Source of the DNA: a virus
IMG/VR virus record: IMGVR_UViG_3300005337_000003
Span: 65,799 to 129,798 of that record
Reading direction: 5' to 3' (one strand)
Length of the DNA: 64,000 nt
The notes beneath the pieces were generated by a model, which made no database searches, was not told the DNA's origin, and was given only the letters and a program-made list of their open reading frames with translations. Shown here piece after piece: positions 21,504 through 25,952 of the stretch. Made by a program: the position numbers and the translations under genes. Position 1 is the stretch's first letter. The number at the start of each line of letters is the position of its first letter.

Positions 21504-21515
21504 TTTCAAAAGAAC
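21504..21515 (-). promoter_or_regulatory. boxA-like antitermination motif
   Basis: GTTCTTTTGAAA just before the tRNA-like element. Confidence 0.4.
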
Positions 21516-21518
21516 GTA

Positions 21519-21598
21519 AGCAGCGGTGACCATTCACCGGGGGCGCCAAACGAGATCGGCTTATCCCCTACGTCCTGTATTCGCCCAGGACTGCTGCC
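21519..21598 (-). ncRNA. Candidate four-way-junction RNA
   Basis: GGCAGC/GCTGCT closing stem plus three hairpins. Confidence 0.45.
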
Positions 21599-25017: not shown

Positions 25018-25362
25018 ATGAGCACATTAAAACTCACATCAGATGGCTCCTACTACAAGCGTAGCTCAGGAGTAGACGGCCTGACCACTGCCAAGCAGGT
25101 ATTCCGTTACAACGTTACCGGGGACGAAAAAGACATCGTTGAATACATTGCCGAGCGCGTGAAGGGCGGCGCCAAGGAAACATCGATAAAGACAGAGACC
25201 GGCGTTAAGTACTATACCGATCGCTTTGTTCCAAACGGCACCAGCCTGGACAAAACCCAGGATGGCCGGTTCTTTCCCAACACTGCCAAATGGGATCAGA
25301 TCCTGAGCCTGCAGAAACAGGGCCACTCCTACGAGGCTGCCGTGGCAATGGTGTCGGCATAA
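25018..25362 (+). CDS. Early protein of crAss-like phages
   Basis: VFRYNVTG...YYTDRFV...KWDQILSL pattern. Confidence 0.65.
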   Translation: MSTLKLTSDGSYYKRSSGVDGLTTAKQVFRYNVTGDEKDIVEYIAERVKGGAKETSIKTETGVKYYTDRFVPNGTSLDKTQDGRFFPNTAKWDQILSLQKQGHSYEAAVAMVSA

Positions 25363-25389: not shown

Positions 25390-25510
25390 GCCGGGAGACT
25401 TGTGCTCCCGGCATTTCACATCAAAAAAGCTCAGTTGTGTGGAGCAAAGTGGCCTGTCCTTTGTGTGGAGGCTGGCCGGCCCCTGGGAGTTGTGTCCCGG
25501 GGGCTTTTCT
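25390..25510 (+). ncRNA. Array of four hairpins with UUGUG loops
   Basis: Loops ACTTGTG, AGTTGTGTG, TTTGTGT, GTTGTG. Confidence 0.5.
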
Positions 25511-25518
25511 ATTTCACT

Positions 25519-25576
25519 GGGGAGTAGGGGTCAACCGGATCGTATACCGGGCGCTGTTCGAGTCAGCGACTCTCCA
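25519..25576 (+). ncRNA. Minimal tRNA-like element resembling the tmRNA TLD
   Basis: GGGGAGT/ACTCTCC-A acceptor with G3.U70; no D stem; CGCTG-TTCGAGT-CAGCG T arm. Confidence 0.6.
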
Positions 25577-25665
25577 CTAAACGAGGCGACAAGCCCACAA
25601 CATAACCACGGGACGGATCAGCTCCAGATAAGCAGCTGGTGGACACGTCTCCTTAACAATAAAAT

Positions 25666-25752
25666 GGAGAGCTGGATGCATGTTGGGCTGTCCGCATGGT
25701 GGCTTTGGGTTGCCACTCTTTTCTCCGGGTTCGATTCCCGGGCTCTCCACCA
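25666..25752 (+). tRNA. Atypical tRNA, Pro(TGG)-like, 8-nt anticodon loop
   Basis: GGAGAGC/GCTCTCC-ACCA, CCGGG-TTCGATT-CCCGG, GTGGC-TTTGGGTT-GCCAC. Confidence 0.65.
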
Positions 25753-25774
25753 GCAACACATTGCGCCTCGACAA

Positions 25775-25952
25775 GCACCGACGGGTGTTTCGTTGGTCAG
25801 ACGTGGTAGCCTTCAATAAGCTACTGATGTCCGTAAAATGGGAAAAAGCACCACATGGATACAGGGGTCCCAACGATAGAGGATGTAATTTACCAGCACC
25901 GAACGCTAATACCAAAACGGGCGTCGAGTACTATCGGAAGATAGTCGCTGGC
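25775..25952 (+). ncRNA. Candidate multi-helix RNA
   Basis: TCGTTGG/CCAACGA, GTAGC/GCTAC, CCAGC/GCTGG, ACTATC-GGAA-GATAGT. Confidence 0.4.

What the first reader, a model, noticed from the sequence alone, without database searches (positions are those of the whole stretch)
25519..25576. 58-nt tmRNA tRNA-like-domain mimic with alanine identity and no mRNA domain
Seen: GGGGAGT pairs with ACTCTCC (G1-C72, G2-C71, G3.U70), discriminator A73, unpaired D region AGGGGTCAA(C), short CCGG/CCGG stem with an 8-nt loop, canonical T arm CGCTG-TTCGAGT-CAGCG; 3' end reads ACTA, so CCA is not encoded. Known: G3.U70 and A73 are AlaRS determinants; the tmRNA TLD has no D stem; jakobid mitochondrial tmRNAs lack the tag domain. 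Inference: an alanylatable TLD-only RNA that could titrate SmpB, block trans-translation or rescue ribosomes without tagging.
Basis: partly seen in the sequence, partly recalled or inferred. Interest (0 to 1): 0.8.

Follow-up and report, generated by a model that had tools for sequence, protein, structure and literature searches.

The report
Anticodon-less alanine-type tRNA-like phage RNA
A distant crAss-like phage carries a 58-base gene shaped like the alanine-accepting top half of a tRNA with no anticodon arm. This resembles the tag-less "mini-tmRNA" of mycobacteriophage DS6A, which blocks bacterial ribosome rescue, so it is a plausible but unproven new example of a known trick.

Summary
A geometry scan finds only two acceptor-plus-T-arm modules in the 130-kb phage: this one and a neighbour at 25666-25752. 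Shuffled genomes give 0.06.

A "TLD only" tmRNA is published for mycobacteriophage DS6A (PMC4131195, PMC11915505), and a similar molecule inhibits tmRNA in E. coli. One pattern scan of IMG/VR returned 14 more anticodon-less alanine-type forms of 59-80 nt. This scan has also reported the same kind on at least 8 other genomes.

Membership is unproven:
- The element has the full alanine acceptor set, a consensus T arm and a stemless G-rich D region.
- Its D region is 3-4 nt shorter than in the class, and it lacks the invariant A of the junction before the T stem.
- It scores 5.8 bits on Rfam tmRNA, against 43.2 for DS6A.
- On my model of the class it scores below ordinary tRNA-Ala genes.
- Its acceptor and T loop match Bacteroidia tRNA-Ala, not Bacteroidia tmRNA.
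- No homologue was found, so conservation and expression could not be tested.

Best reading (about 0.4): a processed, CCA-completed, alanylated non-decoding RNA that acts on host SmpB and trans-translation.

The parts
25519..25576 (+). el1: 58-nt anticodon-less tRNA-like RNA gene, from G1 to discriminator A73
   Evidence: Sequence; MFE equals centroid fold; one of only two acceptor/T-arm modules in the genome, against 0.06 expected; best hit of TLD-only model R2 in the window, 28.7 bits, E 2.6e-4.
25519..25525 (+). Acceptor 5' strand, G1-U7
   Evidence: Pairs with 25569-25575. G3 (25521) lies opposite U (25573). Residue -1 (25518) is U, the base bacterial RNase P is said to prefer at that position (own knowledge)..
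25526..25534 (+). Stemless 9-nt G-rich D region
   Evidence: Unpaired in MFE. Aligns to the D loop of TLD-only RNAs with a 3-nt gap.
25535..25550 (+). 4-bp stem with 8-nt loop, at the position of the tmRNA helix 2 stub or a tRNA anticodon/variable arm
   Evidence: Aligned to the P2 stub of model R2. The loop is not a 7-nt anticodon loop.
25552..25568 (+). T arm: 5 bp with G53-C61 and a 7-nt consensus T loop
25569..25576 (+). Acceptor 3' strand plus discriminator A73
   Evidence: The same 3' strand, discriminator and CTAA trailer occur in Bacteroides tRNA-Ala(GGC) genes.
25577..25579 (+). Trailer CTA in place of CCA
   Evidence: The same A-CTA end is seen in the DS6A TLD-only gene, in the full tmRNA of locus L008 and in 3 further TLD-only forms.
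25478..25505 (+). Terminator-like hairpin with T tract ending 8 nt before el1
   Evidence: It bears on how el1 is transcribed, which remains unresolved.
25577..25665 (+). 89-nt non-coding spacer between el1 and el2
   Evidence: No convincing tag reading frame; ARAGORN finds no tmRNA.
25666..25752 (+). el2: 87-nt non-canonical tRNA-like gene with encoded CCA. Its acceptor differs from el1's at 3 of 14 positions and has A3-U70.
   Evidence: ARAGORN tRNA-Gln(UUG); no Rfam tRNA hit at gathering score; geometry scan; model R2 23.9 bits.

Best explanation
el1 is a real phage gene for a small non-decoding RNA that keeps only the acceptor/T-arm 'top half' of an alanine tRNA. Its overall layout is that of a tmRNA tRNA-like domain without the mRNA part, the 'TLD-only' or CDS-less mini-tmRNA type known from mycobacteriophage DS6A. 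Inferred pathway: it is transcribed in the early/middle plus-strand unit together with el2. RNase P cuts before G1. The CCA-less 3' end is trimmed after A73 and completed by the host CCA-adding enzyme, as the CCA-less tRNA-Ala and tmRNA genes found here in Bacteroidia must also be. Host AlaRS charges it through G3.U70, G2-C71, G4-C69 and A73. Having no anticodon and no resume codon, it cannot decode or tag. The most likely action is competition with host tmRNA for SmpB (and EF-Tu), which would dampen or redirect trans-translation during infection. Shown here: the structure, that it is not chance, the alanine identity set, the absence of a tag frame, and the absence of phage smpB. Inferred: expression, processing, charging and SmpB binding.
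For: The fold and geometry are far beyond chance. The complete acceptor identity set for AlaRS is present (the identity rules are as summarised in PMC3968760). The D region is stemless and contains GG, and a short helix sits just before the T arm, as in TLDs. There is a published precedent of a phage TLD-only RNA, and a similar molecule inhibits tmRNA. The DS6A element was located at L034:28478-28560 and also ends A-CTA. Fourteen further anticodon-less alanine-type forms turned up in IMG/VR; two are as small as el1 (59 and 63 nt), and one lies directly beside a tRNA array, as el1 lies beside el2. None of 13 such virus records encodes SmpB, and neither does this phage, so all would depend on host SmpB. 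A distant relative (L008) carries smpB immediately followed by a full tmRNA, which shows that this wider phage group does carry trans-translation genes. All three stems are perfect, which argues against an old decayed relic. TerL places the phage among Crassvirales-like phages of Bacteroidota, whose tRNA-Ala and tmRNA genes lack an encoded CCA, so the CTA trailer is no obstacle.
Against: No homologue of el1 was found, so there is no covariation or conservation evidence. Rfam tmRNA gives only 5.8 bits (E 4.3) against 43.2 for DS6A, and ordinary tRNAs reach 19-28 bits on that model. On model R2, built from 15 TLD-only RNAs, el1 (28.7 bits) scores below phage tRNA-Ala genes (30-43 bits). The A in the junction before the T stem is invariant in all 15 TLD-only RNAs and present in the five bacterial tmRNAs read (four of them Bacteroidia) and the L008 tmRNA, but el1 has a single G there. 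The D loop is 3-4 nt shorter than in the class. Acceptor and T loop are identical to Bacteroidia tRNA-Ala(UGC/CGC), not to Bacteroidia tmRNA. A terminator-like hairpin ends 8 nt upstream and no promoter was recognised. The nearest look-alike in a related phage (L019) has G3-C70.
Confidence: 0.4

Rival explanations
1. Non-functional relic. el1 is what remains of a phage-borne tRNA-Ala (or tmRNA) gene after internal deletions removed the D arm, most of the anticodon arm and the variable loop. It may be transcribed but does nothing.
For: Acceptor stem and T loop are exactly those of Bacteroidia tRNA-Ala genes. No homologue was found anywhere and the flanking gene is an orphan, so nothing shows selection. 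A terminator-like hairpin lies directly upstream. Neither ARAGORN nor Rfam recognises the element.
Against: All 16 base pairs are intact and the T loop keeps every consensus position. Several separate deletions that each leave a clean compact three-way junction are unlikely without selection. Equally small anticodon-less forms recur in unrelated phages.
Confidence: 0.2
2. A functional tRNA-like module that does not act through SmpB. One option is an RNase P / RNase Z 'punctuation' signal that matures the neighbouring non-coding RNAs (the hairpin cluster upstream, the spacer, el2). Another is a decoy for host enzymes or defence toxins that act on tRNA acceptor ends. On this view the alanine identity is inherited from a tRNA-Ala ancestor rather than selected.
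For: el1 lies in a 624-nt ORF-free stretch packed with other folded elements. tRNA-like features that matter for processing are intact, while tmRNA-specific ones (the junction A, D-loop length) are not. The L019 look-alike has no alanine identity.
Against: All four acceptor determinants plus A73 are present together, which processing alone does not need. No defence-related or toxin-related context was found. The idea is purely inferential.
Confidence: 0.2
3. el1 is not a unit of its own. With el2 it forms one 234-nt 'two-headed' RNA (25519-25752). The 5' strand of el1 pairs with the CCA-ending 3' strand of el2, again giving G3.U70, and the inner strands pair with each other, which gives a reduced tmRNA-like molecule or a switch.
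For: The two acceptor stems differ at only 3 of 14 positions. For the 234-nt transcript the crossed topology is the MFE (-83.2 against -79.8 kcal/mol for the two local folds), with pair probability 0.97.
Against: The z-score of the 234-nt fold is -1.08, not significant. The crossed inner stem has a C-A mismatch, whereas both local stems are perfect. Each element has its own T arm. Co-transcriptional folding favours el1 closing first. No credible tag frame and no ARAGORN tmRNA call.
Confidence: 0.1
4. A decoding, D-armless tRNA that uses the 8-nt loop as an expanded anticodon loop.
For: The hairpin sits roughly where an anticodon arm would, and the loop has U at its second position.
Against: The stem is 4 bp, the loop 8 nt, and the junction to the T arm is 1 nt. 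ARAGORN calls nothing in bacterial or mitochondrial mode. As far as I know (own knowledge), no D-armless decoding tRNA is described in bacteria or phages.
Confidence: 0.03

Closest known systems
TLD-only ('standard, no CDS') tmRNA of Mycobacterium phage DS6A (JN698994: 28478-28560; tmRNA Website tmID 11587; Mao et al. 2009 as cited in PMC4131195 and PMC11915505)
   Same: Phage-encoded. 7-bp acceptor with G3.U70 and A73. Stemless D loop. Short helix before a consensus T arm. No tag reading frame. 3' trailer CTA instead of CCA. No phage smpB found in el1's phage.
   Different: DS6A is 83 nt, has a 14-nt canonical D loop, a longer P2 with an inner hairpin and the conserved junction ending in AC, and scores 43.2 bits on Rfam tmRNA. 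el1 is 58 nt, has a 9-nt D region and a 1-nt junction, and scores 5.8 bits. The hosts are in different phyla. There is no detectable sequence homology.
Uncultivated-phage TLD-only forms found here in IMG/VR (for example L087 59 nt, L078 63 nt, L088 and others about 80 nt)
   Same: Same size range and three-way-junction layout. L078 has a closely similar D-loop core. Some end A-CTA. One sits beside a tRNA array. None has smpB on its record.
   Different: All of them keep the junction A and a 13-14-nt D loop. They were retrieved by a pattern that forces GGGG, the T loop and CTCC, so their alanine identity is by selection. el1 was not retrieved because its own record is withheld.
CDS-less organellar tmRNAs (jakobid and oomycete mitochondria; about 65-bp Mallomonadaceae plastid forms; PMC11915505)
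   Same: tmRNA reduced to the tRNA-like domain, with no tag frame and of similar length.
   Different: The organellar forms co-occur with an SmpB targeted to the organelle, and mitochondrial ones are usually permuted two-piece genes. el1 is a phage gene and is not permuted.
tRNA-Ala of Bacteroidia (for example L233 UGC, L222 CGC; Bacteroides GGC genes)
   Same: Identical acceptor stem, discriminator and T-loop sequence. CCA is not encoded, and some genes have the same CTAA trailer.
   Different: These are full cloverleaves with a D arm, a 5-bp anticodon stem, a 7-nt loop and a 5-nt variable loop. el1 has none of these.

Membership tests
TLD-only (CDS-less) tmRNA | 7-bp acceptor stem with G3.U70 and discriminator A73 (alanine identity) | tested here: met
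   G1-C72, G2-C71, G3.U70, G4-C69, A73.
TLD-only (CDS-less) tmRNA | tRNA-type T arm (5 bp, G53-C61, 7-nt T loop) stacked directly on the acceptor | tested here: met
TLD-only (CDS-less) tmRNA | Reduced, stemless D loop with the conserved GG...UCGAC-type sequence | tested here: inconclusive
   The D region is stemless and contains GG followed by UCAAC. It is 9 nt against 13-14 nt in the 15 members, and aligns with a 3-nt gap.
TLD-only (CDS-less) tmRNA | Helix 2 stub closed by a 3-4-nt junction ending in AC before the T stem (A invariant in all 15 aligned members) | tested here: not met
   A 4-bp stub is present, but the junction is a single G with no A. The four Bacteroidia tmRNAs read have TGGAC there; the L008 tmRNA has ACAC.
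TLD-only (CDS-less) tmRNA | Recognised by tmRNA covariance models, and better than ordinary tRNAs are | tested here: not met
   RF00023 gives 5.8 bits, E 4.3, against 43.2 for DS6A and 19-28 for ordinary tRNAs. Model R2 gives 28.7 bits against 30-43 for tRNA-Ala.
TLD-only (CDS-less) tmRNA | No tag reading frame or mRNA-like domain | tested here: met
   There are 58 nt between the acceptor strands. ARAGORN finds no tmRNA. No tmRNA-like hit in the neighbouring RNA clusters.
TLD-only (CDS-less) tmRNA | Binds SmpB and interferes with trans-translation | not testable with these tools
   Needs biochemistry. The complex predictor takes proteins only.
Canonical decoding tRNA | D arm, 5-bp anticodon stem with 7-nt loop, variable loop of at least 4 nt, detection by ARAGORN or Rfam tRNA | tested here: not met
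Full or two-piece tmRNA | Tag ORF with resume codon, pseudoknots, and (for the permuted form) acceptor piece upstream of coding piece | tested here: not met
   The RF04321 hit of 14.8 bits (E 0.85) lies downstream of el1 (25725-25875, el2's T arm and 3' end onward), and its proposed 5' strand does not pair.
Phage attP fragment of a tRNA/tmRNA gene | Only the 3' part of the gene, next to an integrase | tested here: not met
   Both acceptor strands are present, and no tyrosine integrase is found in the genome.

The most novel reading that the evidence does not exclude
el1 and el2 are one device. The two adjacent tRNA-like heads have near-identical acceptor strands that can swap partners, so the 234-nt transcript can exist either as two small RNAs or as a single CCA-ending, G3.U70-bearing mini-tmRNA-like molecule. 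That would be a structural switch, or a new reduced tmRNA gene form, in crAss-like phages.
Probability: 0.08. Interest if true: 0.65.

Novelty: new member of a known kind. Interest (0 to 1): 0.33.

Why it matters
If el1 is expressed and charged, it extends the DS6A-type mini-tmRNA from actinobacteriophages to crAss-like phages of Bacteroidota. It would also add a very small (58-nt) form that has lost features thought to be needed for SmpB recognition. That makes it a useful natural test of what the minimal SmpB or AlaRS ligand is, and of whether phages inhibit ribosome rescue or only borrow an alanine acceptor. The by-product may matter more than this single unconserved copy: one pattern scan showed that such forms are common in uncultivated phages and never come with smpB.

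Tried and rejected
- **Close homologues:** none found. An exact 16-mer in IMG/VR gave 4 chance hits. A structural pattern in IMG/VR gave only L019 and two ordinary jumbo-phage tRNAs. A D-loop pattern in JGI metagenomes gave 5 chance hits without stems.
- **Flanking genes:** the upstream gene is an orphan in 5.8 billion proteins. Single-protein locus searches failed. blastn against GenBank phages found nothing.
- **Related phages:** 26 loci reached through the frameshift-gene alignment share nothing else with window 17-33 kb. Model R1 found only L019. A whole-record search with R1 found nothing, and its first look also missed the known L019 hit, so it is uninformative.
- **Exact T arm plus acceptor in 185,579 genomes:** none.
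- **Rfam on the element alone:** no hit.
- **Separate mRNA-like domain in the neighbouring RNA clusters:** no tmRNA-like hit.
- **Permuted tmRNA reading:** rejected, because the proposed 5' strand does not pair.
- **attP reading:** rejected.
- **Coding reading:** rejected.
- **Promoter search:** nothing usable.
- **Mao et al. 2009:** not held in the library, so it is cited only through PMC4131195 and PMC11915505.

Full report
**What is there**

The window is the second half of a 129,798-bp IMG/VR virus record with direct terminal repeats. Its large terminase is about 26% identical to those of Crassvirales and other phages of Bacteroidota: Bacteroides, Flavobacterium and Azobacteroides phages. 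It is therefore a distant crAss-like phage, and its host is probably in Bacteroidota.

The element lies in a 624-nt ORF-free stretch between a plus-strand orphan gene (25018-25362) and the next plus-strand genes. ViennaRNA returns the described three-way junction as both MFE and centroid.

The folding-energy z-score (-1.66) is unremarkable, so I tested the geometry instead. I scanned for a 7-bp stem directly abutting a 5-bp stem that closes a TTCRANY loop. This occurs exactly twice in the whole genome, at 25519-25575 (el1) and 25666-25748 (el2). The mean for 100 shuffled genomes is 0.06. The structure is not chance. ORFs overlapping it match no protein family.

**What the standard tools say**

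- ARAGORN finds no tRNA or tmRNA at el1 in any mode. It calls el2 an 87-nt tRNA-Gln(UUG) with encoded CCA.
- Rfam has nothing at gathering score.
- In E-value mode the tmRNA model gives 5.8 bits for el1 and 18.4 bits for el2.
- Ordinary tRNAs in bacterial genomes reach 19-28 bits on that model, so these hits carry no weight.

**Precedent**

The tmRNA literature already describes a phage case. Hudson et al. 2014 list "Mycobacterium phage DS6A (TLD only)". They state that a similar molecule, chargeable or not, strongly inhibits tmRNA, perhaps by titrating SmpB (PMC4131195). The 2025 tmRNA database paper repeats this and adds plastid forms of about 65 bp (PMC11915505). Both cite Mao et al. 2009, which I could not read.

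I located the DS6A element at JN698994:28478-28560. It is 83 nt, scores 43.2 bits on Rfam tmRNA, and ends A-CTA like el1.

**How common the kind is**

Among the pattern matches with a closing 7-bp acceptor stem (69 candidates), about 50 were ordinary tRNA-Ala genes and 14 were anticodon-less forms that ARAGORN does not call as tRNAs. One of the 14, L096, lies inside an ARAGORN tmRNA call, so it may not be a stand-alone TLD-only gene. Two are minis of 59 and 63 nt (L087, L078) and about a dozen are 74-80 nt. One sits directly upstream of a tRNA array. None of 13 such records encodes SmpB, and 3 of those records are at least 97% complete.

This scan's own earlier notes report the same kind on at least 8 other genomes. 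The category is therefore known and recurrent.

**Does el1 belong to it?**

For membership:
- It has the full alanine acceptor set: G1-C72, G2-C71, G3.U70, G4-C69 and A73.
- It has a consensus T arm with G53-C61.
- It has a stemless G-rich D region whose core resembles that of L078.
- A short helix sits where tmRNA helix 2 emerges.
- It has no tag frame.
- The phage has no smpB.
- Its size is within the range of L087 and L078.

Against membership:
- In the alignment of 15 TLD-only RNAs, the A in the short junction before the T stem is invariant. It is also present in the five bacterial tmRNAs I read (four of them Bacteroidia) and in the L008 phage tmRNA. el1 has a single G there.
- Its D region is 3-4 nt shorter than in the class.
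- A covariance model built from the 15 (R2) gives el1 28.7 bits (E 2.6e-4 in the window). Phage tRNA-Ala genes score 30-43 bits on the same model, so the score reflects acceptor and T arm only.
- A scan of 185,579 genomes shows that el1's acceptor stem, discriminator and T loop are exactly those of Bacteroidia tRNA-Ala(UGC/CGC). Some Bacteroides tRNA-Ala(GGC) genes even share the trailer CTAA. Bacteroidia tmRNAs have a different acceptor and T loop.

The layout is TLD-like, but the sequence ancestry looks like tRNA-Ala. That does not change what AlaRS would do. It does leave SmpB binding open.

**The CCA-less end**

The tRNA-Ala and tmRNA genes I read in Bacteroidia lack an encoded CCA. DS6A, the full tmRNA of L008 and three other TLD-only forms end A-CTA. 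The missing CCA therefore fits the likely host and is not a sign of decay.

**Relatives**

The flanking gene is an orphan. Twenty-six loci of distantly related phages were reached through a conserved 70-codon gene 6 kb away. They share nothing else with this region.

- L008 carries smpB immediately followed by a bona fide tmRNA.
- L019 carries a 49-nt acceptor/T-arm minihelix, 230 nt upstream of a tRNA-Met. It has a similar 5' end and an identical T loop, but G3-C70.
- Homology of L019 to el1 is not established. If it is homologous, alanine identity is not conserved.

No other homologue was found in IMG/VR, JGI metagenomes or the genome collection. Expression could not be examined either.

**el2 and the crossed topology**

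The acceptor stems of el1 and el2 differ at 3 of 14 positions: one compensated pair, plus G3/A3. This suggests duplication. For the unprocessed 234-nt stretch, the MFE pairs el1's 5' strand with el2's CCA-ending 3' strand. It is 3.4 kcal/mol better than the two local folds. However, the fold is not better than shuffles (z -1.08), the inner crossed stem has a mismatch, and each head has its own T arm. I keep this as a low-probability alternative.

**Transcription**

A strong terminator-like hairpin ends 8 nt before el1, and no promoter was recognised. crAss-like phages bring their own RNA polymerases (own knowledge), so the bearing of a host-type terminator on el1 transcription is unclear. This remains an open weakness.

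**Verdict**

Membership in the TLD-only class is unproven because two defining features fail. No conservation or expression evidence exists.

Best reading, at about 0.4: a processed, CCA-completed, alanylated non-decoding RNA that competes for host SmpB and trans-translation factors.

Rival readings:
- decayed tRNA-Ala relic (0.2)
- tRNA-like processing signal or decoy acting without SmpB (0.2)
- half of a two-headed 234-nt RNA (0.1)
- decoding armless tRNA (0.03)

Noticed in passing
window 25666-25752 (+): el2 is an 87-nt tRNA-like gene with encoded CCA, a poor D arm, and an anticodon hairpin that closes either on 8 nt or, with G-U pairs, on a 7-nt loop read as UUG. It gets no Rfam tRNA hit at gathering score. 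Its acceptor is nearly the same as el1's but has A3-U70.
   Followed up: partly
L008:1491-2328 (IMGVR_UViG_3300032265_001425): A distantly related phage encodes SmpB (PF01668, 170 bits). Its stop codon directly abuts a full 406-nt tmRNA (Rfam 79 bits) with an unusually long 28-residue tag ending AVAA, and the 3' end reads A-CTA rather than CCA.
   Followed up: partly
IMG/VR loci L052, L056, L060, L066, L076, L078, L081, L087, L088, L095, L098, L105, L106: Thirteen anticodon-less, alanine-type TLD-only RNAs of 59-80 nt appeared among the first 120 rows of one pattern scan. ARAGORN calls none of them as tRNAs, and none has smpB on its record. The roughly 80-nt group shares a conserved inner hairpin. 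The class is far larger than the 9 'standard, no CDS' entries in the 2025 tmRNA database.
   Followed up: partly
L019:5269-5317 (+): A 49-nt acceptor/T-arm minihelix has a 15-nt linker, no middle hairpin and G3-C70. It lies 230 nt upstream of a tRNA-Met in a distantly related phage. It could be a non-chargeable counterpart of el1.
   Followed up: partly
window 21505-21578 (-): An 18-nt stretch matches el1 positions 6-23 at 14 of 18 bases. It sits inside a 74-nt three-way junction (z -2.14) whose closing stem also has G.U as its third pair, but its second hairpin has no T loop. The fold changes when more flank is included.
   Followed up: partly
window 25519-25752 (+): At equilibrium the unprocessed el1-spacer-el2 transcript prefers swapped acceptor partners (-83.2 against -79.8 kcal/mol; pair probability 0.97).
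   Followed up: partly
window 30499-31740 (+): A 413-aa protein of unknown function (phrog_1362, no Pfam match) has its best GenBank phage matches (33-35% identity) in Mycobacterium, Gordonia and Arthrobacter phages. From my own knowledge, not checked here, some of those Mycobacterium phages carry large tRNA sets and tmRNA.
   Followed up: no
DS6A (L034:28557-28560), L088, L105, L106, L008, Bacteroides tRNA-Ala loci L198 and L239: The trailer CTA after the discriminator recurs in phage TLD-only genes, in a phage tmRNA and in host tRNA-Ala genes, far more often than other non-CCA triplets in this small sample. It may be a preferred context for 3' processing.
   Followed up: no
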